A stretch of 64,000 nt of DNA. Source: a virus. Shown here one piece after another: positions 21,061 through 47,917 of the stretch. The stretch lies in the IMG/VR virus record IMGVR_UViG_3300021256_000097; one strand, given 5' to 3'. The number at the start of each line of letters is the position of its first letter. Position 1 is the first letter of the stretch. The notes under the pieces were generated by a model. It ran no database searches. It saw nothing but the letters and a program-made list of their open reading frames with translations, and was not told the DNA's origin. Both the position numbers and the translations under genes were made by a program.

Positions 21061-22713
21061 ATGAACGCAAGAGCTAAACGTATTGCTAAAAAAATTAAAG
21101 AGCCTCTCGTAGTTAAAGACCCATCATTGTTAGATGCTGCTGAAGCAGAAATGGCAAAATTGGTATGGGTTCCAATTGAGGATGATTTCCCTCCAATGAA
21201 AATGGCTTTTGCAACTAAAACTAATGATAACTGCTATAAAGTTTTTGTAAATAATAAGATTCCTGAAAGGTACCGAAACCAGTTTAAGTTGCATGAGTAT
21301 GGTCATATTCTTTTCGGACACCTCTTAGATCTTGATGAAAATAATCAGCAGCTAAAACATAAGTTTACGCAGTTTTGGCCAAAGATTAAAAAGCATATTG
21401 AGCTTGAGCCAGAAGATGAAAATAAAGATATTTTGGATATATTCCAAAAATATTTACTTCCCGTTCAGAATCTTTTTGAAAACTACGCTATGGATATGGA
21501 AGTAAACTCTAAGCTCTTTACCAATGCTGCTGAAAGAAAACAAATGCGTGAAATTACAAGTATTGCCTTAGTATTAGCAATACTTAATGATGACTCTACT
21601 TCAGACAGTGTACTTGACCAAATTGAGGACCATATAAAGAATAAGCCTGATGAGCCACATGCTAAGCCAATTTATCCAGAAGACTATGGTTTTCCAGATA
21701 AGAAGTCTTTCACTGAATATCTTGATTTAATGTTCTTAAATCTCGATAAGTTTATGGACTTGCTAAAGCAACAAGCTAAGGACCTGGACCTAGGTCCTTC
21801 TAATGGTAATTCTGGTAATAATGGCGATGGCGATGGTGGTAGCGGATCTAAGCTCTCACTAGAAGAAATCGAAGCATTAAGAAAAGCAGCTAATGCATCT
21901 GATACTGATAAAGAAGAAAATAATAAAATTGCTGAAAAAGCAGGCCATGGAGAAGGTGCGGATGACTTTAGTGATGGTGACAGTGAAAGTGAAGACTCTG
22001 ACCCAGCTGATGGTGAAGGTGCTGGTAGCGGCTGGACAGGCAATAGAGGCTTTGGTGCAGTAGGGCATGGTCACAAAGAAGAAGTTATCGAGTTAGGCAA
22101 TGGTAAATCCCTAGCTAAATATTTAGAAAAAGAAGTATTTTCTAAGCATGTAAGTAACACTCGTGTAAATGAAATGTATTACTATAATCGTAGAAAATAT
22201 GGCGATAAAGATGTTGTTGCGAAGTTGACAAAAGAAGAGCTTTATAGGCCAGGAAATCTTATCCTTGTAATTGACTGTTCTGGCTCAATTGATAAGAAAG
22301 CAATTAGAATTATGATTAGCGTAATTCGTCAGCTTTCTAAAAAGTGTGGGCCAAGATCAAGAGTAATTTGGTGGGATACAAGATTATGTGGCGATACATT
22401 TTTGAGACAGGAACAGGAGCCTTGTAGTGGAGGATGTACTGATATTGCTGGTGGTATTAAATATGCTGCTGAGCATTATCTTAAGCATTCCAATGATAAA
22501 CTTGTAGTTATTAGCGATTATTGTGATACGCTTTCTAGATGGCTAGAGGAAGCTGAAAAGTTTAAGAATGACATTATTGGTATTGGATGGACATATCAAG
22601 CGTCAGGATCTGTTAGTGAATTTATTCGTAGCAACTACTGGACAGGGTCTGTTGATGCTGATAAGTTTATGAAACGAATTCGTACTAAAATCGTTAGAAT
22701 AGATAATAGATAG
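21061..22713 (+). CDS. Metallopeptidase-like (HEYGH) N-domain plus a C-terminal von Willebrand A domain
   Basis: HEYGHILFGH (HExxH) and LVIDCSGS MIDAS motif. An acidic G/D/S-rich linker separates them. It sits next to the MoxR-like ATPase. Confidence 0.65.
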   Translation: MNARAKRIAKKIKEPLVVKDPSLLDAAEAEMAKLVWVPIEDDFPPMKMAFATKTNDNCYKVFVNNKIPERYRNQFKLHEYGHILFGHLLDLDENNQQLKHKFTQFWPKIKKHIELEPEDENKDILDIFQKYLLPVQNLFENYAMDMEVNSKLFTNAAERKQMREITSIALVLAILNDDSTSDSVLDQIEDHIKNKPDEPHAKPIYPEDYGFPDKKSFTEYLDLMFLNLDKFMDLLKQQAKDLDLGPSNGNSGNNGDGDGGSGSKLSLEEIEALRKAANASDTDKEENNKIAEKAGHGEGADDFSDGDSESEDSDPADGEGAGSGWTGNRGFGAVGHGHKEEVIELGNGKSLAKYLEKEVFSKHVSNTRVNEMYYYNRRKYGDKDVVAKLTKEELYRPGNLILVIDCSGSIDKKAIRIMISVIRQLSKKCGPRSRVIWWDTRLCGDTFLRQEQEPCSGGCTDIAGGIKYAAEHYLKHSNDKLVVISDYCDTLSRWLEEAEKFKNDIIGIGWTYQASGSVSEFIRSNYWTGSVDADKFMKRIRTKIVRIDNR

Positions 22714-26703: not shown

Positions 26704-27000
26704 ATGAAGAAGAAAGAAAATACAGGCCTGACTTATGTACAGGCAGCTAGCATGATAAAAAGAAATCCATATGGAGTAGACTCAAAAGGTGGAAATGCGC
26801 CAAATCTCATTCGTCGTGACGATTGGACTGAAAATAAAGTCCTTACTATTGATAATAAGGGACAACTCCGTATGGCAGATGTAAGACTGAATCCGTCAAC
26901 AAAGAAGCATATGGTGCCTGAGTTTAACAGTCAGGTTACCGCGCGTGAAGACCTCTGGGCAACAGACTGGTGTTTCATTGATGCGGCAGATTATTTCTAA
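26704..27000 (+). CDS. Hypothetical protein
   Basis: Promoter core at 26691-26700. Confidence 0.45.
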   Translation: MKKKENTGLTYVQAASMIKRNPYGVDSKGGNAPNLIRRDDWTENKVLTIDNKGQLRMADVRLNPSTKKHMVPEFNSQVTAREDLWATDWCFIDAADYF

Positions 27001-27490
27001 TTTTCTCGATGATGAAGATAATCAGTTAGAACATCTAAATTTTGCTAGCACAACCGCGTATAAAAGCTTTTATAATTTCTATGATAAAAGCCTACAAATG
27101 TTTATGCCAGATTCACCTGCGGATTTTGCTTTTGTAAAAAAGTGGCTACAAACATTAGGCCTTGGAAAAGCTTTTAAAAAAGCTTTTAATGAAATTAAAA
27201 AAGTAGATGGAGAAGTAGCAGCATATAAGTTTGCTTCTTATGTTAAGGAATTACTAATCAAATGTTATCTAGTTGTTCATTGTCCTAATGAATATACTTA
27301 CCTTAATGAAAAGGCAGAAGAGCTATCTAAAATTAAACTCATGAAATTTATGAGAAGCCCCCTAATGCAAGAAGAAGCTAGTGACTTTCAATTAGAAAAA
27401 CTATTTGAACTTATAAAACTGATAAACTTTACATTTGATAAATACGCTTATAAATTTTTATTGAAACATGAGCACACAATTAAAGACTGA
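26945..27490 (+). CDS. Hypothetical protein in the +1 frame. It overlaps the 3' end of 26704..27000 and has no RBS of its own.
   Basis: ORF track. The start is unclear. Confidence 0.3.
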   Translation: MKTSGQQTGVSLMRQIISNFLDDEDNQLEHLNFASTTAYKSFYNFYDKSLQMFMPDSPADFAFVKKWLQTLGLGKAFKKAFNEIKKVDGEVAAYKFASYVKELLIKCYLVVHCPNEYTYLNEKAEELSKIKLMKFMRSPLMQEEASDFQLEKLFELIKLINFTFDKYAYKFLLKHEHTIKD

Positions 27491-27725
27491 ATTTGATTGG
27501 GTAAAGAAGAATAATATTATTGTGGTTTATAGTGACCACGCAAGATTCTTTAGGGATTCTTTGCTCTTTACCGAAGTTGACAAAAAAATAACGCCACATC
27601 AAGCAATAAAAATGAGTATTGCTGAGAATATTAAGATTGATCTAAGAATGCTTCCCTCTGATAAGAAAACATTTGTTAGTGAAATTTTAATTGGTCATGG
27701 CGTTTTAGCTGAAAATATAATTTAG
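27468..27725 (+). CDS. Hypothetical protein
   Basis: Overlapping coupled start. Confidence 0.4.
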   Translation: MSTQLKTEFDWVKKNNIIVVYSDHARFFRDSLLFTEVDKKITPHQAIKMSIAENIKIDLRMLPSDKKTFVSEILIGHGVLAENII

Positions 27726-27803
27726 AAAAAATTCTACGGAAGTTTTTTGACTTCCGTTTTTTTATTGACATATTATCTATAACATAACGCATAGGAGATA
27801 ATT

Positions 27804-28907
27804 ATGGACGAAATCAATGAAATCGTAAAAACATTGACAGAATGGCGGAATGCTTACTACAATGGTAGCCCAGTCGTATCAGACGCTGAGTTCGATGACC
27901 TTGAAGATAAGCTCAGACAGCTTGATCCAGATAACGAATACTTTAATGGAATTGGTGAAGATGAGCTGGATGGCTTTCCAAAAGCAAATCACACTATTCT
28001 TATGGGTAGCCAGGAAAAATGTAATACCGTTGAGGAAATTATCAAGAAGCTTAATCATTTTACTGGTAAAAAAGTTGCAATGCTTGTAGAGCCAAAATGT
28101 GATGGAATCAGTCTTGAATTGAACTACAAAGATGGAAAAGCAACAGCGCATATTACTCGTGGCAATGGTTATGTTGGTGATAACATTACTGTAAACGCTT
28201 CAAAAATGCAGGGTGTACCCGCGGGTATTCCTGTTTCGGAGGGTGTTGCTATTCGTGGCGAAATTATGCTGCTTCATTCTGATAAAGAAAAATATTTCCC
28301 AGAACTTAAGAACTGTCGTAATGGCGCTTCTGGTATTGCAAAGAATAAAGATGGAATCGGATGTGAGCATCTTACCGTTGTATGCTACGATTGCCAGTAT
28401 ACCGACGAGGATAAATCTTTCGGAACAGAAGCAAACAAACTCGACTTTCTTACTCAGTGTGGCTTTATGCGCGTAAATGCGGATATGGTTATTGCTGACT
28501 GTACAACTCCAGCTGGAATTAAAAAAGCTGCTGAAGATTTGATGGCAAAAATGAATGAGTTTACAATGACAGAACGTGAATATGACACTGATGGTGTTGT
28601 TGTTAAGCTCAACATTATCGATGACCACGATCTTCGTACAGAACTTCACCCAAAAACTCAGTGGGCCATTAAACCTGCTCGTGTAGAAGTTGAGACTACT
28701 CTTATCGATATTGAATGGAACATGACAAATGGTAGCCTGGTACCAGTAGCAATCTTTGAACCAGTTGTCCTGGATGGCGCAACAATCCAGCGTGCAAGCC
28801 TTGTAAATGTAGCAGAAATTGAACGTCTTGGCCTGTATATCGGCGCAAAGATTATGGTATCTCGAAGAAATCTTGTAATACCTAAAGTAGAGAGATTAGC
28901 TGCGTAA
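27804..28907 (+). CDS. ligA: NAD-dependent DNA ligase, N-terminal fragment (adenylation plus OB domain only)
   Basis: EPKCDGISLELNY (KxDG) and TRGNGYVGDNIT. It ends right after the OB-fold ...NLVIPKV, which matches LigA DVIPQV. Confidence 0.8.
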   Translation: MDEINEIVKTLTEWRNAYYNGSPVVSDAEFDDLEDKLRQLDPDNEYFNGIGEDELDGFPKANHTILMGSQEKCNTVEEIIKKLNHFTGKKVAMLVEPKCDGISLELNYKDGKATAHITRGNGYVGDNITVNASKMQGVPAGIPVSEGVAIRGEIMLLHSDKEKYFPELKNCRNGASGIAKNKDGIGCEHLTVVCYDCQYTDEDKSFGTEANKLDFLTQCGFMRVNADMVIADCTTPAGIKKAAEDLMAKMNEFTMTEREYDTDGVVVKLNIIDDHDLRTELHPKTQWAIKPARVEVETTLIDIEWNMTNGSLVPVAIFEPVVLDGATIQRASLVNVAEIERLGLYIGAKIMVSRRNLVIPKVERLAA

Positions 28908-28991
28908 GTTAAAAATAATTGCCAGAGTTCTATACTCTGGCTATTTATTTTACATATTATAATTGTTAACCTTATACAGAAGGAGGCAATT

Positions 28992-29333
28992 ATGTCTTAT
29001 GTTTTACCTAGAGAAATCGATGTAAAGATGCTTGCTGCAGTAGAGAAAGATAAGCAGGCTATTATCAAAGCTCTCTGGCCAAATGGCAGTTTTGATCCAG
29101 TACCAAATGAAGCTTTTGTAAAAAAATTCATGTCAATTAAGGACCCAATAAGACTCGCACGTCGTGCTAGAGCTTATGTATCTCTTGTTGGAAAGCCTTA
29201 TGTAAATGAAACCACTTTCACAAGCGAGTTTGCCTTGATAGTAAATCAGCTATGGAAAGCTGGATTTGATGGTCAGCAAATTCATGATATTGCACAAACA
29301 AAAGCTAATATTCCTGTTCTTATGAACATTTAG
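28992..29333 (+). CDS. Hypothetical protein
   Basis: Promoter 28952-28961 and a GGAGG RBS. Confidence 0.5.
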   Translation: MSYVLPREIDVKMLAAVEKDKQAIIKALWPNGSFDPVPNEAFVKKFMSIKDPIRLARRARAYVSLVGKPYVNETTFTSEFALIVNQLWKAGFDGQQIHDIAQTKANIPVLMNI

Positions 29334-29342
29334 GAGTTTAAT

Positions 29343-29876
29343 ATGAATCTTATCGTGGATAAGCCAAAATATTCTAATTGTCTCTTTGAAGCCATTAGGT
29401 ATAAGTGGAAAACACATGGTAAGATTTATTCACTTGATCGATTCTATCAGAATACCTTTTATAATGCACTTCGTAGAGATGACGAAGAAACTAACATACT
29501 TACCAAACATTACTTTGTAGTTACACCAGATTTTGAAAATGGTGAGATGGGGTATATTTACCAGTTTAAGTCAGCTAAGGCGAGAGTAAGGTTTCCTCTT
29601 CTTTTTAAGGGAAGCATTACAGCTATGTATAAAGATGATGGCTTTAATACCATGCTTTTCAATTTAGCTTGGGCCATGAATAAGCTTGGTTATTCAACAG
29701 AAGAGATTAAGAATAAAATTCTCGATTATGAAAATAAATGGCACTATAAATCTACTTTAGGAAGTCTTATTTGTAGAGGCATAAAAAAAGACTTGGAGCA
29801 AACTTATCGAGAAGCTTATCCAAGTCTTATTGCTGATTTAGAAGCAATTAAACTTACAATTGTGACGGTTTCCTAG
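29343..29876 (+). CDS. Hypothetical protein
   Basis: RBS plus ORF. Confidence 0.5.
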   Translation: MNLIVDKPKYSNCLFEAIRYKWKTHGKIYSLDRFYQNTFYNALRRDDEETNILTKHYFVVTPDFENGEMGYIYQFKSAKARVRFPLLFKGSITAMYKDDGFNTMLFNLAWAMNKLGYSTEEIKNKILDYENKWHYKSTLGSLICRGIKKDLEQTYREAYPSLIADLEAIKLTIVTVS

Positions 29877-30111
29877 AAGTATATGTTATTGTGCTATTAG
29901 GAAACTCTTTTTTAAGTTCAGCATATTTCTTTTTTGCTTCTGACTTAACATAGCTGCCTTTCTGTAAATTACCATCTACATAGAACAAATAAACACTTTC
30001 GAAATCATCATCTGGATTTCCAGTAATCTCGTGTCCATGTAAGCCTTTTTCAGCTGTAAGTTCTCTAAGGTGATTAGCCTTTTCGTAAATAGATTCAAAA
30101 ATTTTATCCAT
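29854..30111 (-). CDS. Possible minus-strand small protein
   Basis: ORF only. No clear RBS. Confidence 0.25.
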   Translation of the reverse strand: MDKIFESIYEKANHLRELTAEKGLHGHEITGNPDDDFESVYLFYVDGNLQKGSYVKSEAKKKYAELKKEFPNSTITYTSRKPSQL

Positions 30112-30178
30112 AATACATAATTAGCTTATACTTTCCAATTTTATTCTACATATTATAGATACTTAAAGGAGGAAGAAA

Positions 30179-30670
30179 GTGCTTAGAGAAGACGAAATTC
30201 AGATTATGCTCTATGCTATGAATCAGTATTGCGACGCAAACTTTATTGGTGAACGACGCCAGTATGCTAAGGCTTTCATAGCTGAGCTTGATCTTCAGAT
30301 TAACGCTGAATCATTCAGAAAAATAATTCAGGAAGTTGAGGAAAAATTTTCTAACAGAACTTTATGGGATGTTTACCGTAATGTTGCTATGAATCAGAAT
30401 TGGCCACTTAAAAAACATTTACGATGGGTTCACAATCACACTATTGATATGGACCTACTTTATACATATATGAATGACTTAATGCATAAAGAACTACCAA
30501 AAGCATGTTTTGACAATTTCGTTGTAAATTACCTTCAGCCTAAAGCTGAAACATACGTAAAGGTAATTGCGCCAGAAGCTGAAGCAGCTCGCGAAAAGTT
30601 GGAAGAAGCAAAGGATGAATCCAAGAGAGCATTGGAACGTGAAGAAGCATTTTTTAAGGGAGCCTATTGA
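30179..30670 (+). CDS. Hypothetical protein
   Basis: Promoter 30148-30157 and a GGAGG RBS. GTG start. Confidence 0.5.
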   Translation: MLREDEIQIMLYAMNQYCDANFIGERRQYAKAFIAELDLQINAESFRKIIQEVEEKFSNRTLWDVYRNVAMNQNWPLKKHLRWVHNHTIDMDLLYTYMNDLMHKELPKACFDNFVVNYLQPKAETYVKVIAPEAEAAREKLEEAKDESKRALEREEAFFKGAY

Positions 30671-30957
30671 TGGAAAAGTCTGATGGGATATTTGAAGAGT
30701 TTGAATCAAGTATGAATCAGATGCTTAAAGATGGTAAAGACTTCTGGCATGCGGCCAGAGTTATTGCGGGTAATCTTATTGAAAAATATTCAGAAGATAC
30801 TGTATCTGAAGCGTCCGTACTGATAAGAACAATGCCAAATAAAAATGCAAGCCTTGTATCTAGCTTGCTTCAATCCGAACTTGCAATGATGCATATGAAG
30901 TTTGTTAAGCCAGATGGTAAAGAATACCCTATGACTTATCAAAGAGTTTTCAAATAA
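30667..30957 (+). CDS. Hypothetical protein
   Basis: Coupled start. Confidence 0.45.
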   Translation: MMEKSDGIFEEFESSMNQMLKDGKDFWHAARVIAGNLIEKYSEDTVSEASVLIRTMPNKNASLVSSLLQSELAMMHMKFVKPDGKEYPMTYQRVFK

Positions 30958-31008
30958 TTTTTGGACTATAGAACTTTTGTAAACATATAATATATAATTG
31001 GAGGAATT

Positions 31009-31839
31009 ATGAATATTAAAGATTTTATCAAGGCAAATCCAAATGCGCAGAAATGGAATCTTCCATCAGTCTGTCCAGTTTGTGGAGCTGATCTTGAACT
31101 TAATGAAAATCATACAGACATCGTTTGTACGAATGAGGGCTGCAAATCAAAGCTTATCGGACGCTTAAAAAAGTGGGCTGAGAAACTTGAAATCAGAGAG
31201 CTTGCTCCTACAACTCTGGAAAAGTTCATTGATGGTGGTCTGATTAAGAATGTATCTGACCTTTATAAAGCAGACTTTTCTGTTATTGCAAATTGGCCCG
31301 GATTTGGTGAGCGTTCCGCTGAAATCTACAAGAAAAACATTTCAAAAGCAACAACTGCAACTCTTGCTCAGTTTATCGCAGGTTATAATATTGGTGATGT
31401 TGGTGAAAAAGTTGTTCAGAAGATTATTGATGCAAAAGGTATCCGCGAACTTTCTGAATTTGCAAATCTCAGAGCAGAAGATCTTGTTTGTGAAGGCGCT
31501 GGTATTACAACCACAAGAAAGCTTATTGATGGAATCTCAGCTGTCTGGGATGATATGCTTGAAACATCTAAGTACGTAGCAATCGAAGTACCAGCAGAAA
31601 AAGATTCTAACAAGCTCGCTGGAATGGTATTCTGCTTCACAGGAAAAGCTTGTCTTCCACGTCCGCAGCTTCAGGCAATGGCGGAAGCAAATGGTGGAAA
31701 GTGTGCTTCTTCAGTATCTAAGAATACAACTTATCTTGTAACTGATGATACAGACACTGGATCAAGCAAGAACAAGAAAGCTGCTGAGCTTGGTATCCCT
31801 GTAATCACATCAGAACAGTTCTTGGAGCTTGTAAAATAA
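31009..31839 (+). CDS. ligA: NAD-dependent DNA ligase, C-terminal fragment (Cys4 zinc finger, HhH, BRCT)
   Basis: CPVCGADL...CTNEGC zinc finger, HhH region, and BRCT (FCFTGK...LVTDD). It has its own promoter at 30983-30992 and its own RBS. Confidence 0.8.
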   Translation: MNIKDFIKANPNAQKWNLPSVCPVCGADLELNENHTDIVCTNEGCKSKLIGRLKKWAEKLEIRELAPTTLEKFIDGGLIKNVSDLYKADFSVIANWPGFGERSAEIYKKNISKATTATLAQFIAGYNIGDVGEKVVQKIIDAKGIRELSEFANLRAEDLVCEGAGITTTRKLIDGISAVWDDMLETSKYVAIEVPAEKDSNKLAGMVFCFTGKACLPRPQLQAMAEANGGKCASSVSKNTTYLVTDDTDTGSSKNKKAAELGIPVITSEQFLELVK

Positions 31840-32229
31840 ATGAATCTATCTAAGTTCATATTTCTATCATGCGTATGGGCTTTTTTATTCTATAATCTGC
31901 GTATTTATTGCGCAGATGGTAGATATGCTTATGCAAAAATCTTATGTGACTTTCGGGATAAAGTGTCTAATCTTATCGAAAAAGGACTTAAGTTAACTGA
32001 GCATCTGGATCAAGAAGAAGGTAAAACAACACCTGATGATATTGAAAGCATTATATTGATTGCTGGCTTAACTGGAATCCTTGATGAGCTTACTACGGAA
32101 ATGGTCTTTATTAGGAAGTTTCCTTTTATTTATATCCGTAATCCTGAAAAGCGCTTAAGACGCAGATATGAAAGGTACTTAGAGATCTTGAATGCAGCAC
32201 ATGAAAAGTTTTTAGGAAAAACAGCTTAG
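31840..32229 (+). CDS. Hypothetical protein
   Basis: Coupled to the ligase C-fragment (TAAATG). Confidence 0.4.
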   Translation: MNLSKFIFLSCVWAFLFYNLRIYCADGRYAYAKILCDFRDKVSNLIEKGLKLTEHLDQEEGKTTPDDIESIILIAGLTGILDELTTEMVFIRKFPFIYIRNPEKRLRRRYERYLEILNAAHEKFLGKTA

Positions 32230-32246
32230 ATATAGGAGGAGTACTT

Positions 32247-32735
32247 ATGGCACAAGAAAATGATATTATTGAAGTAATGCAGCGACGGCAGCAAGTATTG
32301 CAGGAAGCTGCTGAACGTAAAGCAAGATTCTTTGAAGTTGCAGTCAATAAAATGACGCCATTTATTGAGAATCTGAAAAAGTATAAAATGCAGTACTTGC
32401 AGATGCAATTTGAACATGGCCAGGATTTTGGTGATTTTTCTATGGGAGGCAAAAGTCTTCTTATGGTTACGCCAAAAGGTGTATGTGTCGTTGATATGAC
32501 AAAAGACGTTAAAGACGCCGGGCGTTATGTTGACATGTCATTGGTATCTTTCAATAAGATAACCGAAGAAGAACGGCGTGGCCATTTGTTAAATATTACA
32601 ACATATGTTGCGCAGAATCTGGATAAACTAGTAAGCCAGGAAATAGAAGATATTTATAGCTTCTATAAGAATCAGCTTATTGAAGCCCAGGATAATTCAG
32701 ATGGATGGGAGCAGCTGACACAGAACATAGCTTAA
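32247..32735 (+). CDS. Hypothetical protein
   Basis: GGAGG RBS. Confidence 0.5.
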   Translation: MAQENDIIEVMQRRQQVLQEAAERKARFFEVAVNKMTPFIENLKKYKMQYLQMQFEHGQDFGDFSMGGKSLLMVTPKGVCVVDMTKDVKDAGRYVDMSLVSFNKITEEERRGHLLNITTYVAQNLDKLVSQEIEDIYSFYKNQLIEAQDNSDGWEQLTQNIA

Positions 32736-32758
32736 CTGACTTGTCTATATAGTAAATA

Positions 32759-32825
32759 AAACCCGCTTTAATTCCTACGTTAAATAAGTAGGTTAGGCGG
32801 GTTATTTTTTTTTTATTTTTTTTTG
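32759..32825 (+). terminator. Strong intrinsic terminator
   Basis: aacccgc...gcgggtt hairpin followed by a long T-run. Confidence 0.65.
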
Positions 32826-32902
32826 ATCGGTTTTTATACTCTGCATAAACTATAAACATATAATATATGTAAACTAAAACAATTACTTTGGAGGTAATAC
32901 TT

Positions 32903-33895
32903 ATGATTATGTCAACTGAAAAGAACAAAGTTCTTACAAATGCAAGTGACGCAGAGACAAGAAACTTTACAATTGCTTGTAACGAAAATATTCTTGATAC
33001 CTTGTCAAGACGTCTTTACACAAACATTCCACGTGCTGTAATTCGTGAGCTTGTGTCAAATGCAATCGATGCAAATATTGAAGCTGGTGTTGATGAAAAA
33101 ATCCTGCTTCACCTGCCAAGCGGACTTGAGCCAGAGTTTTATGTTGAAGACCATGGTATCGGTATGAATGAAGAGACAATCTACAACGTTTATACTCAGT
33201 ATGGTAACTCAACTAAGAATGGCTCAAACAATTGTATCGGTGGACTTGGACTTGGTTCAAAAACTCCATTCGCTTACACAGACCAGTTTTTCGTAATTTC
33301 TTCAAAAGATGGTGTTAAGAATACTTTTGTCTGCTTTAGAAATGAGCAGGGAGAAGCTTGTATCACTAAAATGGCATCTGAAGCATGTTCTGAAACTGGT
33401 ACAAAGGTATCATTCCCAGTAAAGGAAAATGACATTCGCAGCTTTACTAACGAGGCTGTCATAACTTTACTCTTCACTATGAAGATGCCAGAACTTGTTG
33501 GTGAAAAGGATCGTTTCTTAAGAGTAGCTGGTGTTGAGTCTCTTGAAGAATATGAAGCACTTCGTAAAGAACTTGCTGAGAACACTTACATCACAAATGA
33601 AAAGCTGCGTTCACTCATCAACTACTCGTCTTCTTATGGTAAACTTATCGTTGAAATGGGCGGAGTTGCTTACAAAGTAGATTCTAACGAAATCTTCGAA
33701 GATGGTAACTACAATCCTGTTCTGGAATATATCTGCAAGAAAAGCGATCTTCAGGTATTCCACTTGCCAATCGGCGCAGTTCAGATCCAGTCTTCTCGTG
33801 AAGCGCTCAACTACACACGTTTCACAAAAGAAGCTCTTACTAAGCTGTTTATTCAGGAATTCTTGGCAGATGCTAAGAAGGTAATTGCAGCTTAA
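32903..33895 (+). CDS. GHKL-superfamily ATPase (Hsp90-like N-domain)
   Basis: RELVSNAIDA (N box), EDHGIGM (G1) and GGLGLGSK (G2). Confidence 0.6.
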   Translation: MIMSTEKNKVLTNASDAETRNFTIACNENILDTLSRRLYTNIPRAVIRELVSNAIDANIEAGVDEKILLHLPSGLEPEFYVEDHGIGMNEETIYNVYTQYGNSTKNGSNNCIGGLGLGSKTPFAYTDQFFVISSKDGVKNTFVCFRNEQGEACITKMASEACSETGTKVSFPVKENDIRSFTNEAVITLLFTMKMPELVGEKDRFLRVAGVESLEEYEALRKELAENTYITNEKLRSLINYSSSYGKLIVEMGGVAYKVDSNEIFEDGNYNPVLEYICKKSDLQVFHLPIGAVQIQSSREALNYTRFTKEALTKLFIQEFLADAKKVIAA

Positions 33896-34014: not shown

Positions 34015-35427
34015 ATGAATAAAATCGGCACAGCGTTGACAATTTTTAACAACAACGGTTTTGAAGCTGCTTTCAAAGAAGCTCAGAAGTACACTGGTTA
34101 TTTGACAGACGAAGACCGTGCATTGCTTAGCCAGTTAGACGCTTCAGTTAAGGCAAAAGAAGAGGCTTTTACAAAGACTGTCGCAAAGTTTGCAGCTAAT
34201 GGCTTCAAAGTTCTTACTCTTACAAATACAAAATCTGGAAAGAATACTTCTTCAAGCGTTCTTTCACTCAAGTCAGAAACTTCTCGTAACTTGTTCGGCT
34301 TGTCTATGGAATTGAGCAAGTTCCAGAATACTGATGTATTAGTAGCTGATGATGCTCGTTTTCAGGACGACTTGTTTGCAAGAGGCCTTGCTAAGGTTCT
34401 TCGTGAAACTCTTAATTTTGATGGCTGTTATGCAAAAAAGAGCTTTATTGCTCTTCCAGCAAGTAAGCTCAAGTCTTACGAAAAGGTTTTCGATATTGGT
34501 ACAGTTTACAACTTGTCTAGCCTTCTTGATGCAGCAAAAGAAAAGGCAAGACAGGCACGTAAGGTAGCAGCTACTGGTGAACGTTGCGAAGCTGGTGATG
34601 CAGAGCTTTTTTATCAGGTGCTCTATTTTGATACAGCTTCTAATGGCTGGAAATCAAAATACAATATGTCTTATAACAAGCTCAAAGCTGAGTTTGCTGG
34701 AAAGACAATTGTTGCAGCTATTCGTGGAAAAAATGGTGATAACAGCTATGACTATTACGCAGACGTTCGTATTCCTACCGATAAGGCTTCTGAAAAGACA
34801 TTTACAACTTCTGATATTAGCATAAAAAGTCTTCATAACGGTATGTACTACGTTGCCAAGAACTTCGGAGTAGCTGAAAATTATGTTTTGGCTTACTTGT
34901 CTGGTGGTAGTTACAAGCGTCTTAAACTCTGGCGTGATACAGATATTTTGCTTGAAAAACAGACACTTATTGACATCTACCGCGAAAAACTTGCAAATCT
35001 TAAGCCAGTTGAAATTGTGAATTACACAGATAACTTGCTTAACGAGAATAACATTACAGACGTTAAGGCTTGTATTGACAAATACTCAACATTGGCCGAT
35101 CGTCAGACAAAGTTCTACAAGAGATTTGCAATGGCTGTAACAAAGCTTGAACAGCAGGAAACTCTTCGTCAGAGTGACGAGTACGCAACATACTTCAGAA
35201 ATCAGAGTGACTTGAGAGAACTTGGATTTAATGAGCTGGTAACTTACAAGACTGTAACACCAGAACTCTTCGCTGACTACCCAATGCTTAAGCACTTCGG
35301 TTATAGTTATGGTTCTGATCTGCGTCTTTCAAGAGATGGCGCAGTTAGAGAAATGTTCGACTACGTTTCTATGGTAGAAGAACTTCAGGCTATGAAAGCT
35401 GCATCTGTAACTGAACAGGTTGCGTAA
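34015..35427 (+). CDS. Hypothetical protein (470 aa)
   Basis: Promoter, GGAGG RBS and long ORF. Confidence 0.55.
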   Translation: MNKIGTALTIFNNNGFEAAFKEAQKYTGYLTDEDRALLSQLDASVKAKEEAFTKTVAKFAANGFKVLTLTNTKSGKNTSSSVLSLKSETSRNLFGLSMELSKFQNTDVLVADDARFQDDLFARGLAKVLRETLNFDGCYAKKSFIALPASKLKSYEKVFDIGTVYNLSSLLDAAKEKARQARKVAATGERCEAGDAELFYQVLYFDTASNGWKSKYNMSYNKLKAEFAGKTIVAAIRGKNGDNSYDYYADVRIPTDKASEKTFTTSDISIKSLHNGMYYVAKNFGVAENYVLAYLSGGSYKRLKLWRDTDILLEKQTLIDIYREKLANLKPVEIVNYTDNLLNENNITDVKACIDKYSTLADRQTKFYKRFAMAVTKLEQQETLRQSDEYATYFRNQSDLRELGFNELVTYKTVTPELFADYPMLKHFGYSYGSDLRLSRDGAVREMFDYVSMVEELQAMKAASVTEQVA

Positions 35428-35514
35428 GTTAAATAAGTTTTGAAAAAAGTTCGGAAGTTTTGTGCTTCCGAACTACTATAGACATATTATATATGTACAA
35501 TGGAGGTACACGTT

Positions 35515-36630
35515 ATGGAAAACAAAATGCGTTACATGGTAACATCGAATGGCTTGTCAGTATTCTTTGCTGGTAAGAAACCTTTTATGGTTGCAAAAGA
35601 CCATCCAAACTTCAATGCAATTCTTGAGGCTGTAACAGCTGATAAGGCTCCTTCTTATGAAGACATTGAAAAGTTGGCTGAGATCAAGAAGTCTTTGACA
35701 ACTCTGTCTTATGACAATGTTGAAATTGCTCTTGATGAAAATGACGAACTGATCTTGAAGCTTGACGGAAAAGTAACTGAAGTTCTTTCTTCTGCTCTTA
35801 TCGGCCGTTTGGTTGGTATGCTTCGTGAATCAGAAAGCCCACTCCGCAAGGCAGTATTCCAGTCATTCGCAAAGTTCATTTCGAACCTTTACAAGAATCC
35901 TTCTTACCGCTCTGTAAAGCAGATGTACGGCTTCCTTGAAGCAAACAACTTGCCAATCACTCAGAATGGTACATTCTTGGCTTACAAGAAAGTTCGCGGT
36001 GACTATTTTGACATTCATTCAGGCACATTCGACAATTCAGTTGGAAAAGTTGTTGAAATGCCTCGTAATCAGGTTGAAGACAACCCAGAAATCACTTGTT
36101 CACACGGCTTGCACGTTTGTTCATATGGTTACTTGAAACATTACTCATCAGCTTCTGATGACCGTATTGTAATCTGCGAAGTAAACCCAGCAGATGTTGT
36201 ATCAATTCCAACTGACTACGACAACGCAAAAATGCGTGTATGCAAGTACACTGTAGTTGATGAAGTTCCAAGCCACTTCACAGCACAGCTTTCATCTTAC
36301 GTTTACGGTAAGCATTCAGATGGCTGGATCAACGAGACTTACAAGAAGCTTGAAACACTCTTCAAGAAGTTCTTCGCTGTTGAGCATGTTGATTTTGATC
36401 ACTTGCCTAACACAATCAGCTATAACGACATGACACCACCAGTTATCGAAGACTTCTACAAAGAAGCAGAAGCTGTTGGCTTGAATGTTCCAACTAAGTT
36501 GAAGGACCTTTCTCTTGAAAAAGAATGTGTACCTACAATGAAGACAATGTTCCAGTGGCTCGCTAAGTACGACTCAAACTGGGTACGTCCTACAGCTGCT
36601 GACACAGAAGACGAAGCTGACGCTGAATAG
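35515..36630 (+). CDS. Hypothetical protein (372 aa)
   Basis: Promoter 35482-35491 and GGAGG RBS. The start was moved to the ATG after the RBS. Confidence 0.55.
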   Translation: MENKMRYMVTSNGLSVFFAGKKPFMVAKDHPNFNAILEAVTADKAPSYEDIEKLAEIKKSLTTLSYDNVEIALDENDELILKLDGKVTEVLSSALIGRLVGMLRESESPLRKAVFQSFAKFISNLYKNPSYRSVKQMYGFLEANNLPITQNGTFLAYKKVRGDYFDIHSGTFDNSVGKVVEMPRNQVEDNPEITCSHGLHVCSYGYLKHYSSASDDRIVICEVNPADVVSIPTDYDNAKMRVCKYTVVDEVPSHFTAQLSSYVYGKHSDGWINETYKKLETLFKKFFAVEHVDFDHLPNTISYNDMTPPVIEDFYKEAEAVGLNVPTKLKDLSLEKECVPTMKTMFQWLAKYDSNWVRPTAADTEDEADAE

Positions 36631-46164: not shown

Positions 46165-46428
46165 ATGAAATTATGCGTATAATATGAAAGTTGAAATTTC
46201 ATAAAATACGCTAATATAAATATAACAGAAAATGCTGTAGGATTAGGTTTACTTAGATTCTATTTTTGGTTTAGAAAAAACAAAGAGCCTATCCGATTTT
46301 TCGCTTTTCTTAATTTTGGAATTATATGTAAGCCGACTCCCTATTACCAAATCGGGACCCCTCCTTGTCGGATTCATATGAGACATAGTTACGGGAAGCA
46401 TGCGAATGCTTCCTTTTTTTTTATTTAT
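46165..46428 (+). ncRNA. Candidate small ncRNA, about 260 nt from promoter to terminator, immediately upstream of the Ro60-like gene (possible Y-RNA-like RNA)
   Basis: The unit is bounded by the promoter and the gggaagcatgcgaatgcttcc+T9 terminator. An internal 13-bp hairpin gcgtataatatgaaa/tttcataaaatacgc is present. No ORF or RBS. Confidence 0.35.
46393..46424 (+). terminator. Intrinsic terminator
   Basis: gggaagcat gcga atgcttcc plus T9. Confidence 0.7.
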
Positions 46429-46471
46429 AAAATTATTTAATAAACTTCAGTTTGAAGTGAGGAGAAATAAA

Positions 46472-47917
46472 GTGAGTAAGGTTAATCAGAAAGCCAGTGT
46501 AGCAGAAGCTAAGAAGGTTTATGTACCGGGCGTTAAGGAAGATGCAAGACGTACTCTTATGACTTGTCTCTTGTGGGAAGATGAATACTATGAAAATGGT
46601 GTTTCAATTGCTGACCGCCTTAGGGGATATGTAAAACGCCTTAGCGAGCAGGATTGTCGTGAATTGTTATTGGAAGCAAAGTTCCAGAACAAGCTTCGCC
46701 ACGCTCCATTATTCTGGGCTGTTCAGATGGCAAAAGAAGGAAAGCTTAAGGCAGACGATGTTGCAAAGATTTGTGACCGTGTAGATACAATGGCTGACCT
46801 TTTGGCTATTTACTTTGATGAAAACCCTCTTTCAGACTCAGAAAAGTCAAAGTGTTATAAAAACGGAAATCGTGTGCACCGTGATAACAAAGCGGTACCA
46901 AAAGCAATTACAAAGGGCCTTCAGAAAGCAATTGAAAACCCAAGATTCGACGAATACGCTTTTGCAAAGTATCGTCTTGAGGATAAAGCAATCAAGACTC
47001 GCGACGTAATTCGTCTTGCACACGTAAAGCCATCAACCCCAGAACGTTCAGCTTTGTATAAGAAAGTACTTGATGGCACACTTGCGACTCCAGATACATG
47101 GGAAGTAGCTATCTCTGCTGCAGGTTCAGACATGAACGCTAAGCGTGACGCTTGGACTCGTTTGCTTTCAGAGAATAAGCTTGGTGTATTGGCATTGCTT
47201 CGTAACCTTAATGGTATGAGCCGTGCAGGTGTTGACCAGGCTAAGATTCGTAAGGCAGTAAAAGCAGCTTCAATTGGTCGTGTACTCCCATTCCAGATTG
47301 TAACTGCTTCAAGACACGCGCCAGAATTGGCAGATGTATTGAACACAAAGTTCATGGAATCTGTTGAAAACGTTGAAAAGCTTGAGGGAGAATCTCTTGT
47401 ACTTGTAGATGTTTCTGGTTCTATGAATGCTCCATTGTCAGCTAAGTCTGATACAAAACGTGTAGACGTAGCTGCTGCTCTTGGAGCTCTTGTAAAGGAA
47501 GTAAGTAAGGGTAGCGTAATCTACGCATTCGACGACAGCCTTAGACCAGTATCAACTGACCTTGCTGGATTGCCACTTGTACGTGAGCTTTCAAGAAATG
47601 GTGGTTGTACTGCAGTAGCAGAGTGTACAGAAAGAGCTATTAAAAACTACAGAAATTCACATGGCGGACGTGATCCAGCTCGTGTTATTGTAGTAACAGA
47701 CGCTCAGGACAACTCTTCTTACAACCGCGGTTGGGGCTGTGAATACGATGTAGCACGTATGCCAAAGGTTCCTTATGGAACTGGTTACATTGTAAATGTT
47801 GGAGCTCAGAAGAATGGCGTTGAATACGCGCTTCACTCTGGCTGGATGACTGTTTACGGATGGTCAGACAATATTGTTAAGTACATTGCAGCTTTGGAAA
47901 ATGAAAGACGCAAGTAA
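46472..47917 (+). CDS. rsr: Ro60/Rsr-like protein (TROVE plus vWA)
   Basis: CLLWEDEYYENG (TROVE-like), ALLRNLNG (Ro60 ALLRNLG signature), and vWA MIDAS LVDVSGSM. GTG start after GAGGAG. Confidence 0.6.
   Translation: MSKVNQKASVAEAKKVYVPGVKEDARRTLMTCLLWEDEYYENGVSIADRLRGYVKRLSEQDCRELLLEAKFQNKLRHAPLFWAVQMAKEGKLKADDVAKICDRVDTMADLLAIYFDENPLSDSEKSKCYKNGNRVHRDNKAVPKAITKGLQKAIENPRFDEYAFAKYRLEDKAIKTRDVIRLAHVKPSTPERSALYKKVLDGTLATPDTWEVAISAAGSDMNAKRDAWTRLLSENKLGVLALLRNLNGMSRAGVDQAKIRKAVKAASIGRVLPFQIVTASRHAPELADVLNTKFMESVENVEKLEGESLVLVDVSGSMNAPLSAKSDTKRVDVAAALGALVKEVSKGSVIYAFDDSLRPVSTDLAGLPLVRELSRNGGCTAVAECTERAIKNYRNSHGGRDPARVIVVTDAQDNSSYNRGWGCEYDVARMPKVPYGTGYIVNVGAQKNGVEYALHSGWMTVYGWSDNIVKYIAALENERRK

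What the first reader, a model, noticed from the sequence alone, without database searches (positions are those of the whole stretch)
27804..31839. NAD-dependent DNA ligase split into two separately promoted genes 2.1 kb apart
27804-28907 encodes only the LigA adenylation and OB domains (KxDG motif EPKCDGISL, ending ...NLVIPKV). 31009-31839 encodes exactly the missing C-terminal portion: the Cys4 zinc finger CPVCG...CTNEGC, HhH and BRCT. The C-terminal gene has its own ACATATAATA promoter and GGAGG RBS. Five unrelated small genes, four of them with their own promoters, lie between the halves. This is not an intron or intein arrangement. The break falls precisely at the OB/Zn domain boundary. 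That suggests either a functional two-subunit ligase or an insertion that fractured ligA and was fixed by acquisition of a new start.
Basis: partly seen in the sequence, partly recalled or inferred. Interest (0 to 1): 0.65.

Follow-up and report, generated by a model that had tools for sequence, protein, structure and literature searches.

The report
Two-gene NAD-dependent DNA ligase in phage
A very large rumen-type phage makes its NAD-dependent DNA ligase from two separate genes 2.1 kb apart; the split is real and under selection, but the same kind of two-subunit ligase is already known from T5-like phages and has a solved structure.

Summary
27804-28907 (+) encodes domain Ia, the adenylation domain and the OB fold of LigA. 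31009-31839 (+) encodes the Cys4 zinc finger, HhH and BRCT. The break lies in the OB/Zn linker. Catalytic and zinc-binding residues are intact and invariant among relatives. Both halves are under strong purifying selection (dN/dS 0.03-0.05).

The split is not local damage. The 84 closest homologues of the N half and the 40 closest of the C half are all stand-alone proteins, many on 400-440 kb phage contigs. In that clade the two genes lie 49 nt, 0.4 kb, 1.7-2.8 kb, 5-8 kb, about 27 kb or about 172 kb apart. The genes between them change even between 95-99% identical relatives. The five genes seen here therefore did not cause the break. They occupy a fast-turnover slot between two conserved genes.

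Best reading: a ligase of two separately made subunits that assembles on nicked DNA. T5-like phages carry the same split (ligase subunits A and B), and PDB 9hu3 is a phage heterodimeric ligase on nicked DNA. I call this a new member of a known kind; the new points are that the genes are unlinked and that the split probably arose independently. No intron, intein or homing endonuclease was found. Only two of the five intervening genes carry the phage promoter motif, not four.

The parts
27736..27757 (+). Terminator-like hairpin plus T-run that ends the upstream transcription unit
   Evidence: 9-bp stem followed by TTTTTTT; sequence
27768..27777 (+). Promoter-like motif ACATATTATC, one mismatch to the phage motif ACATATWATA, 36 nt upstream of the LigN start; AGGAG RBS at about 27793
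27804..28907 (+). LigN: domain Ia, nucleotidyltransferase (adenylation) domain and OB fold of an NAD-dependent DNA ligase, 367 aa. Adenylation lysine K98 sits in EPKCDG. The protein ends 5 residues after the OB motif IPKV.
28921..28941 (+). Intrinsic-terminator-like hairpin (GCCAGAG...CTCTGGC plus T-run) directly after LigN
   Evidence: sequence
28952..28961 (+). Promoter-like motif ACATATTATA upstream of the 113-aa gene
28992..29333 (+). Intervening gene 1, 113 aa, no family match. Present in L173 and L174, absent from L002.
29343..29876 (+). Intervening gene 2, 177 aa, no family match. 47% identical homologue in L002; replaced by an unrelated 166-aa gene in L173.
29854..30111 (-). Intervening gene 3, 85 aa, on the opposite strand. 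Conserved in L002 (60%) and L174 (dN/dS 0.03); absent from L173.
30148..30157 (+). Promoter-like motif ACATATTATA upstream of the 163-aa gene
30179..30670 (+). Intervening gene 4, 163 aa, no family match
30670..30957 (+). Intervening gene 5, 95 aa (96 aa if it starts at TTG 30667). It abuts gene 4. No family match.
30983..30992 (+). Promoter-like motif ACATATAATA 26 nt upstream of the LigC start; GGAGG RBS at about 30999
31009..31839 (+). LigC: Cys4 zinc finger (C22, C25, C40, C45), HhH domain and BRCT domain of an NAD-dependent DNA ligase, 276 aa, with a 21-residue head predicted to be helical before the zinc finger

Best explanation
The two ORFs encode the two subunits of one NAD-dependent DNA ligase that is translated as separate polypeptides and assembles non-covalently. 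LigN (Ia-NTase-OB) reacts with NAD+ to form the lysyl-AMP intermediate at K98 and carries out nick adenylylation and sealing. LigC (Zn-HhH-BRCT) supplies the DNA-binding half that completes the clamp around the nick in single-chain LigA. Each gene has its own RBS and a copy of the same phage promoter-like motif, so the two are probably expressed in the same temporal class alongside the neighbouring replication genes. The fission is old and is inherited by a whole clade of very large phages. The space between the halves has since become a slot where small accessory genes are gained, lost and replaced. Shown here: domain content, intact residues, selection, clade-wide conservation, variable spacing. 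Inferred: heterodimer formation, NAD+ dependence, promoter function.
For: 1) Complementary coverage of LigA. N aligns to E. coli LigA 9-389 and C to 403-668. On phrog_3869 they cover positions 8-380 and 377-653.
2) Catalytic residues are present and invariant in 20 split relatives: Ia residues Y18, Y19, D27, D31; K98, D100, G101; R119; E153; R172; D263, G264, K268; K290. The zinc ligands C25, C40 and C45 and the BRCT residues T211 and G212 are invariant in 53 stand-alone C proteins, and C22 is conserved in at least 90% of them; all four Cys are invariant in the 16-sequence alignment.
3) dN/dS against L174 is 0.025 (N) and 0.041 (C); against L173 it is 0.047 and 0.046.
4) The 84 best N homologues (95% down to 39% identity) lack the C domains, and the 40 best C homologues (97% down to 33%) are stand-alone proteins of 263-286 aa.
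5) Both halves are found on the same contig wherever enough sequence is available, on the same strand where I compared strands (not done for the ~172 kb pair). Spacings are 49 nt (L009), 421 nt (L003), 1.7-2.8 kb (L002, L004, L173, L174, window), 5-8 kb (L008, L015, L043, L049), about 27 kb (three IMG/VR contigs) and about 172 kb (one contig).
6) Identity of the N and C halves to the window falls in parallel across relatives: 81/74, 58/51, 56/56, 43/44 %.
7) An AlphaFold2 model of LigC (pLDDT 90.8) matches LigA C-terminal regions and chain B of PDB 9hu3, titled 'PR1 phage heterodimeric DNA ligase in complex with 21-mer nicked DNA'.
9) ACATATWATA occurs 39 times against 0.75 expected, 38 of them on the coding strand. 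In 29 of the 38 a recognisable RBS and start codon follow, 23-47 nt downstream in 28 of those.
Against: No biochemical evidence exists for this protein pair. Physical association is inferred by analogy with a distantly related phage enzyme (31% and 26% identity by tblastn to the A and B subunits of the T5-like phage Shiner). The window's LigN has only a 5-residue tail after the OB fold, whereas most clade members have a conserved 15-residue tail, so any docking element may differ here. Only 64 kb of a 940 kb scaffold was available, so a second, complete ligase elsewhere in the genome cannot be excluded. Unlinked genes up to about 172 kb apart would also fit two proteins with partly independent roles.
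Confidence: 0.85

Rival explanations
1. The two proteins work independently. LigN would be a self-sufficient minimal ligase (NTase plus OB, like the small ATP-dependent viral ligases). LigC would be a free-standing HhH-BRCT DNA-binding or scaffold protein that serves other partners.
For: The genes are unlinked in several clade members, at about 27 kb and about 172 kb. They have separate promoters and a terminator follows LigN. BRCT domains mediate protein-protein contacts in other systems (PMC5052709).
Against: [quoted passage not shown] C proteins are found on the same contig as short N proteins wherever enough sequence is available. The two halves diverge in parallel. The T5-like counterpart crystallises as a heterodimer on nicked DNA.
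Confidence: 0.08
2. The five genes now lying between the halves, or a mobile element carrying them, inserted into an intact ligA and fractured it. A new start codon then rescued the C half. This is the reader's second alternative and resembles the mobE insertion that split nrdA in phage Aeh1.
For: Splitting of a gene by insertion, with retained function, is documented for Aeh1 nrdA (PMC3045599). Tail plus head at the break total a median of 33 residues in split forms, against a 17-residue linker in fused relatives, so extra sequence exists at the break.
Against: The split is shared by a clade that includes a member with only 49 nt between the halves (L009). Gap contents differ between relatives that are 58%, 81%, 95% and 99% identical. 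No endonuclease, transposase or other mobile-element family matches any gap gene. The present cassette therefore arrived after the split. An older insertion that has since been lost cannot be excluded as the original cause.
Confidence: 0.05
3. The halves are joined after transcription or translation, by a group I or II intron, trans-splicing, a split intein, or programmed frameshifting or read-through.
For: Fractured genes with split inteins and an intervening endonuclease gene are known from metagenomes (PMC2677866).
Against: Rfam finds nothing in 27500-32300. LigN ends 5 residues after the OB fold, and LigC has 21 residues before the zinc finger, with no HN-C/S/T junction and no Hint or intein Pfam match. 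The gap holds conserved genes under purifying selection, one of them on the other strand, plus a terminator and promoter motifs.
Confidence: 0.01
4. The ORFs are decaying remnants of a broken ligase, or an assembly or frameshift artefact.
For: None beyond the unusual gene structure.
Against: dN/dS is 0.03-0.05 for both halves. The same architecture appears in many independent assemblies from different samples. All catalytic residues are retained.
Confidence: 0.01

Closest known systems
[quoted passage not shown]
   Same: The break is in the same place, in the linker between the OB fold and the Cys4 zinc finger. Subunit A ends a few residues after the IPxV motif in both (IPRIVERVYE in the T5-like phage, IPKVERLAA here). 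Both have two separately translated ORFs. The domain content of each subunit is the same (PMC3632103).
   Different: In T5-like phages the genes are neighbours (about 200 nt apart in phage Shiner). Here they are 2.1 kb apart with five genes, a terminator and promoter motifs between them, and up to about 172 kb apart in relatives. Sequence identity is low (31% and 26% by tblastn). The T5-like N half never groups with the window's clade in 100 bootstrap NJ trees, so the fission is probably independent. LigC here has a 21-residue head predicted to be helical, against 8 residues in the T5-like subunit B.
Single-chain bacterial LigA (E. coli LigA, PDB 2owo; T. filiformis LigA, PDB 1dgs)
   Same: All domains (Ia, NTase, OB, Zn, HhH, BRCT) and all catalytic and zinc-binding residues are present when the two products are taken together.
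   Different: There are two polypeptides instead of one. Pfam scores for the Zn and HhH parts fall just below the curated cut-offs.
Genes-in-pieces ribonucleotide reductase of Aeromonas phage Aeh1 (nrdA split by mobE; PMC3045599)
   Same: An essential replication-related phage enzyme is encoded in two pieces with another gene between them, and the pieces function as separate polypeptides.
   Different: No endonuclease gene is present between the ligase halves. The Aeh1 split cuts within a domain and depends on insertion-derived tails. Here the cut lies at a natural domain boundary, and the window's N tail is only 5 residues.
Fractured genes with split inteins (PMC2677866)
   Same: A gene is split into two ORFs that are separated by other coding sequence.
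   Different: There are no intein halves at the break and no homing endonuclease, so nothing indicates protein splicing.

Membership tests
NAD-dependent DNA ligase (LigA) | Domain Ia with the NMN-binding residues (E. coli Y22, D32, Y35, D36) | tested here: met
   AYYNGSPVVSDAEFDD aligns to E. coli LYHVMDAPEIPDAEYDR. Y18, Y19, D27 and D31 are invariant in 20 split relatives. Y35 is replaced by F30.
NAD-dependent DNA ligase (LigA) | Nucleotidyltransferase motifs: motif I KxDG lysine, motif III E, motif IV D-G-K, motif V K | tested here: met
   K98-C-D100-G101 aligns to E. coli K115-L-D-G. RGE153 aligns to RGE173. DTDGVVVK268 aligns to DIDGVVIK290. K290 aligns to K314. All are invariant in the alignment. 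Pfam PF01653 gives 2.8e-29.
NAD-dependent DNA ligase (LigA) | LigA-type OB fold | tested here: met
   Pfam PF03120 gives 2.4e-16 at 59.8 bits, above the 32.9-bit cut-off.
NAD-dependent DNA ligase (LigA) | Cys4 zinc finger after the OB fold | tested here: met
   C22, C25, C40 and C45 align to the E. coli zinc-finger cysteines in the 403-668 alignment and are invariant in 16 relatives; in 53 relatives C25, C40 and C45 are invariant and C22 is conserved in at least 90%. Pfam PF03119 scores only 23.1 bits against a 25.8-bit cut-off.
NAD-dependent DNA ligase (LigA) | HhH DNA-binding domain | tested here: met
   phmmer against T. filiformis LigA residues 402-658 gives E 3e-22. The AlphaFold2 model (pLDDT 90.8) superposes on E. 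coli LigA-DNA (2owo) over 188 columns at rmsd 3.0. Pfam HHH_5 scores 24.6 bits against a 27-bit cut-off.
NAD-dependent DNA ligase (LigA) | C-terminal BRCT domain | tested here: met
   Pfam PF00533 gives 4.9e-18. T211, G212 and K254 are invariant.
NAD-dependent DNA ligase (LigA) | All domains on one polypeptide | tested here: not met
   A stop codon lies at 28905-28907, and 2101 nt holding five other genes precede the C ORF.
NAD-dependent DNA ligase (LigA) | NAD+-dependent nick-sealing activity | not testable with these tools
   This needs a biochemical assay.
Heterodimeric NAD-dependent ligase of T5-like phages (subunits A/B; PDB 9hu3) | Break between the OB fold and the zinc finger, giving an A subunit (Ia-NTase-OB) and a B subunit (Zn-HhH-BRCT) | tested here: met
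   N matches 9hu3_A (339 aa) up to residue 334 of that chain. C matches 9hu3_B (248 aa) from residue 2. The separate PHROG families phrog_3359 (N only) and phrog_3498 (C only) both match.
Heterodimeric NAD-dependent ligase of T5-like phages (subunits A/B; PDB 9hu3) | Subunit genes adjacent | tested here: not met
   The gap is about 200 nt in Klebsiella phage Shiner and 2101 nt with five genes here. Relatives range from 49 nt to about 172 kb.
Heterodimeric NAD-dependent ligase of T5-like phages (subunits A/B; PDB 9hu3) | Common descent of the split (same fission event) | tested here: not met
   In the NJ tree of 81 N-half sequences the T5-like sequence groups with the window's split clade in 0 of 100 bootstraps. 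Fused ligases lie between them. Deep nodes are weakly supported, so this is a probable result, not a proven one.
Heterodimeric NAD-dependent ligase of T5-like phages (subunits A/B; PDB 9hu3) | Physical heterodimer on nicked DNA | not testable with these tools
   No multimer prediction or experiment was available.
Fractured genes / split inteins | N- and C-intein halves flanking the break, with a nucleophile at +1 | tested here: not met
   The N tail is 5 residues (ERLAA). The C head is 21 residues with no HN-C/S/T junction. No Hint or intein Pfam match was found.
Genes-in-pieces by homing-endonuclease insertion (Aeh1 nrdA/mobE type) | Free-standing endonuclease gene between the pieces | tested here: not met
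   No Pfam or PHROG match for any gap gene in the window, L003, L004, L173 or L174.
Genes-in-pieces by homing-endonuclease insertion (Aeh1 nrdA/mobE type) | Insertion-derived tails at the break that are needed for assembly | tested here: inconclusive
   Split forms carry a median of 33 residues at the break, against 17 in fused forms. The C head has a conserved HxWN[LMV]PT motif predicted to be helical. Its function is untested, and the window's N tail is short.

The most novel reading that the evidence does not exclude
LigA may have been split at the OB/Zn linker several times independently in phages: in T5-like phages, in this clade of very large phages, and in at least two or three further IMG/VR groups. 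In this clade the halves have become fully unlinked genes, up to about 172 kb apart, that still co-evolve. The clade-specific sequence at the break would then be a previously undescribed docking module that replaces the covalent linker. This sequence is the helical HxWNLPT head on LigC and the TGKxxxGYEF tail on most LigN proteins. Separate genes might also let the phage tune ligase activity through subunit dosage or timing.
Probability: 0.3. Interest if true: 0.45.

Novelty: new member of a known kind. Interest (0 to 1): 0.3.

Why it matters
The result shows that the LigA clamp can be assembled from two free polypeptides in a second, probably independent phage lineage, and that the two genes need not even be neighbours. 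That supports the OB/Zn linker as a naturally permissive fission point, which is useful for engineering split ligases. It also warns annotators against calling such halves truncated or partial ligases. It identifies a fast-turnover accessory-gene slot in very large rumen-type phages. It does not reveal a new kind of enzyme or mechanism.

Tried and rejected
- Megablast of 27000-33000 against 50,697 phage records found no match. The phage has no close sequenced relative in that collection.
- Rfam at a permissive threshold over 27500-32300 returned only a chance lncRNA hit (E 0.93), so there is no intron.
- Pfam and PHROGs on the five gap genes, and on gap genes of L003, L004, L173 and L174, gave no significant family. 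The two sub-threshold hits are phrog_12159 (E 0.007) and ATP-synt_ab_C (E 0.0015, on the 129-aa gene downstream of LigC), and I treat both as noise.
- Literature searches for a paper on the T5 or PR1 heterodimeric ligase, or for any description of split LigA in jumbo phages, found only annotations in passing (PMC3632103). No dedicated paper is in the held library.
- A single-protein search for close relatives of the L020 C half did not find the missing C genes of L021-L024. A degenerate DNA pattern for WNxPT..CPxxCG did find them.
- The same pattern in 185,579 prokaryotic genomes gave one clade member, on a yak-omasum 'Clostridia' MAG contig that is probably a mis-binned phage. The other loci that matched either half are ordinary LigA-like genes, fused wherever both halves fall inside the fetched stretch; three loci matched neither half.
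- I did not try structure prediction of the complex, because the tool folds single chains only and accepts only unmodified window or database sequences.

Full report
**What is in the sequence**

- The first ORF matches Pfam DNA_ligase_aden (2.8e-29) and DNA_ligase_OB (2.4e-16).
- The second matches BRCT (4.9e-18). It also matches HHH_5 and the LigA C4 zinc-finger model, but just below their curated cut-offs.
- Against solved structures, the N product aligns to E. coli LigA residues 9-389 and the C product to residues 403-668. The C product also aligns to T. filiformis LigA residues 402-658 with E 3e-22.
- Against the full-length phage ligase profile phrog_3869 (656 positions), the two products cover positions 8-380 and 377-653.

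The two products are therefore exactly complementary, and the break lies in the linker between the OB fold and the zinc finger. The 64-kb window holds one copy of each half and no other ligase-like sequence.

**Are the halves intact?**

The alignment to E. coli LigA places the following residues on their counterparts:

| Window residue(s) | E. coli counterpart |
|---|---|
| K98 (in EPKCDG) | adenylation lysine K115 |
| R119 | R136 |
| E153 | E173 |
| R172 | R200 |
| D263, G264, K268 | motif IV |
| K290 | K314 |
| Y18, Y19, D27, F30, D31 | domain Ia NMN-binding residues |

Apart from F30, all of these are invariant in an alignment of 20 stand-alone N proteins that are 39-81% identical to the window.

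In LigC, the zinc ligands C25, C40 and C45 and the BRCT residues T211, G212 and K254 are invariant across 53 stand-alone C proteins; the fourth zinc ligand, C22, and the HhH glycines are conserved in at least 90% of them. An AlphaFold2 model of LigC is confident (mean pLDDT 90.8). Its best structural matches are LigA C-terminal regions and chain B of PDB 9hu3.

**Are they functional genes?**

I compared the window with two near relatives recovered from independent assemblies.

| Comparison | dN/dS LigN | dN/dS LigC | dS |
|---|---|---|---|
| L174 (99% and 97% aa identity) | 0.025 | 0.041 | 0.34-0.39 |
| L173 (95% and 90% aa identity) | 0.047 | 0.046 | not listed here |

Both halves are under strong purifying selection. 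This rules out pseudogene remnants and assembly artefacts.

**How widespread is the split?**

In a search of 5.8 billion proteins, the 84 best hits to LigN (95% down to 39% identity) are all 307-411 aa and carry only the adenylation and OB domains. Full-length ligases of 612-643 aa appear only from about 41% identity downward. The 40 best hits to LigC (97% down to 33%) are all 263-286 aa stand-alone proteins. Many sit on contigs of 400-440 kb. The window itself comes from a 940,564-bp metagenome scaffold.

Gene neighbourhoods show conserved synteny: dCMP deaminase, a ClpP-like protease, three small genes, LigN, a variable gap, LigC, an rIIA-like ATPase, a 470-aa protein, then rIIB.

The distance from the LigN stop to the LigC start varies widely.

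| Locus | Gap |
|---|---|
| L009 | 49 nt |
| L003 | 421 nt (one gene) |
| L002 | 1.7 kb |
| L004 | 2.0 kb |
| window | 2.1 kb |
| L173 | 2.5 kb |
| L174 | 2.8 kb |
| L008 | 7.9 kb (19 genes, including a sigma-70-like gene) |

Among 79 IMG/VR loci, about 50 ligases are fused, 13 are split with the C gene within 10 kb, and 12 have a short N gene with no C gene within 10 kb. For four of those 12 I found the C gene elsewhere on the same contig. In three it lies about 26.5-27.2 kb downstream on the same strand. In one it lies about 172 kb away.

**The genes between the halves**

The five ORFs (113, 177, 85 on the minus strand, 163 and 95 aa) match no Pfam or PHROG family. They are real genes, with dN/dS of 0.03-0.15 against L174. 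Their presence, however, is unstable.

- L174 is 99% identical in LigN but has an extra 217-aa gene, with its own terminator, inserted directly after LigN.
- L173 is 95% identical but has an unrelated 166-aa gene in place of the 177-aa gene and lacks the minus-strand gene.
- L002 is 81% identical, lacks the 113-aa gene, and its other four genes are only 38-62% identical.
- L004 is 58% identical and shares none of them.

Since L009 has the halves almost touching, the present cassette was added after the fission. It marks a fast-turnover slot and is not the cause of the split.

**Expression signals**

ACATATWATA occurs 39 times in the window against 0.75 expected, 38 times on the coding strand. 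In 29 of those 38 a GGAG-type RBS and start codon follow, 23-47 nt downstream in 28 of them. I read it as a phage promoter or another upstream control element; that function is inferred.

- Exact copies precede the 113-aa gene (28952), the 163-aa gene (30148) and LigC (30983).
- LigN has a one-mismatch copy (27768).
- Terminator-like hairpins lie just upstream of the LigN promoter motif (27736-27757) and directly after LigN (28921-28941).

LigN is thus a monocistronic unit, and LigC starts a separate unit.

**Comparison with what is known**

T5 has long been annotated with NAD-dependent DNA ligase subunits A and B (AAU05253, AAU05254; PMC3632103). In the T5-like Klebsiella phage Shiner the two genes (320 and 249 aa) are about 200 nt apart. 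PDB 9hu3/9i5i contains a 339-aa chain A and a 248-aa 'DNA ligase subunit B'. Both are close homologues of the Shiner subunits (E 3e-114 and 9e-73). The entry is titled 'PR1 phage heterodimeric DNA ligase in complex with 21-mer nicked DNA containing phage nick sequence', released 2026-01-14. PHROGs already holds separate N-only (phrog_3359) and C-only (phrog_3498) ligase families, and both match here.

The break in T5-like phages is in the same linker. Subunit A there ends IPRIVERVYE, and LigN here ends IPKVERLAA. A two-subunit NAD-dependent ligase split at the OB/Zn boundary is therefore an established kind of enzyme.

**Relationship to the T5-like split**

I built a neighbour-joining tree of 81 N-half sequences.

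- The window falls in a clade in which all 19 members are split (bootstrap 61/100).
- The window, L002, L003 and L004 group in 100/100 bootstraps.
- In the point-estimate tree a group of fused ligases is the sister of the split clade, but that grouping has only 29/100 support.
- The T5-like sequence never joins the split clade (0/100).
- Other split forms (L036, L052, L074 and the L033 group) are scattered among fused ones.

Deep nodes are weak, so repeated independent fission at this linker is likely but not proven.

Fused relatives have a median 17-residue linker. Split forms carry a median 15-residue N tail and 18-residue C head. In this clade the C head has a conserved HxWN[LMV]PT motif, and the model predicts residues 3-16 of the head to be helical at pLDDT 84-88. 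Most N tails read D..TGK...GYEF, but the window's subclade has only ERLAA. These could be docking elements; that is speculation.

**Mechanism proposed**

What is established for single-chain LigA:
- Domain Ia and the NTase domain carry out adenylylation with NAD+.
- The OB fold covers the nick.
- The zinc finger positions the HhH domain relative to the OB fold.
- The HhH domain binds both strands and closes the clamp against the NTase domain.
- BRCT strengthens DNA binding (PMC5052709, PMC7470946).

The most likely mechanism here is that LigN performs the chemistry and LigC supplies the other half of the clamp, with the two meeting on nicked DNA or as a pre-formed heterodimer. I give this 0.85 confidence.

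**Rivals**

- Independent functions for the two proteins: 0.08.
- Fracture by the present insertion: 0.05 as an origin story.
- Splicing or intein joining: 0.01. Rfam found nothing and there is no room for intein halves.
- Decay or artefact: 0.01.

**Verdict**

The feature is a new member of a known kind. What is new is modest. It is a second, probably independent lineage of split LigA, found in very large phages from what appear to be rumen-type samples. That sample origin is inferred from sample names and one yak-omasum contig and is not verified. The halves are not adjacent, and relatives show that they can be fully unlinked. The gap between them is a hot spot for accessory-gene turnover. 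Interest is about 0.3.

**Limits**

- There is no biochemistry for this protein pair.
- Only 64 kb of the scaffold was available.
- The NJ trees have weak deep support.
- No paper describing the PR1 or T5 heterodimer was in the searchable library, so that comparison rests on PDB entry titles and sequence matches.

Noticed in passing
whole window (positions about 311,173-375,172 of ENA ERZ28612970 scaffold_1): The window comes from a 940,564-bp metagenome scaffold with phage-type content: clamp loader, DnaB, dCMP deaminase, ClpP-like protease, rIIA/rIIB and a phage-specific promoter motif. Relatives' contigs are 411-442 kb. The scaffold could be an exceptionally large phage genome, a concatemer or a mis-assembly. 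One search reports two further similar places that were not shown.
   Followed up: no
32888-33895 and 34015-35427 (+): The rIIA-like gene (335 aa) covers only positions 1-293 of the 725-position rIIA profile phrog_612 (E 9e-88). The next ORF (470 aa) has no family match, and rIIB follows at 35500-36630. rIIA may also be encoded in two pieces. The same 337 + 465 + 361 aa arrangement is present in L004.
   Followed up: partly
38 sites on the + strand and one on the - strand, e.g. 28952, 30148, 30983, 32856, 33971: ACATATWATA occurs 39 times against 0.75 expected. In most + strand sites an RBS and start codon follow 23-47 nt downstream. It often sits inside a partly palindromic TACATATTATAaATGTA. 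It is probably a phage-specific promoter or operator.
   Followed up: partly
1973-4663 (+): An 896-aa P-type cation-transporting ATPase (E1-E2_ATPase 2.9e-35, Cation_ATPase_C 1.7e-29), an unusual gene for a phage genome.
   Followed up: no
46400-47917 (+): A 505-aa protein with a TROVE (Ro60-like) domain, E 2.1e-10.
   Followed up: no
L174:4114-4767 compared with window 28908-28951: A 217-aa gene of unknown function, with its own terminator, sits directly after LigN in L173 and L174, which are 95-99% identical to the window. It is absent from the window, so this is a very recent gene gain or loss at this spot.
   Followed up: partly
L008:17173-17991: In a 413-kb relative the 7.9-kb gap between the ligase halves includes a sigma-70-like gene (Sigma70_r2/r4) and a CTP_transf_like gene.
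   Followed up: no
21061-22713 (+): A 550-aa protein with a weak match to an HNH endonuclease family (phrog_1314, 2.7e-09, residues 375-497), about 5 kb upstream of LigN. In L004 and L005 a NUMOD3/GIY-YIG-type gene lies about 7 kb downstream of LigC.
   Followed up: no
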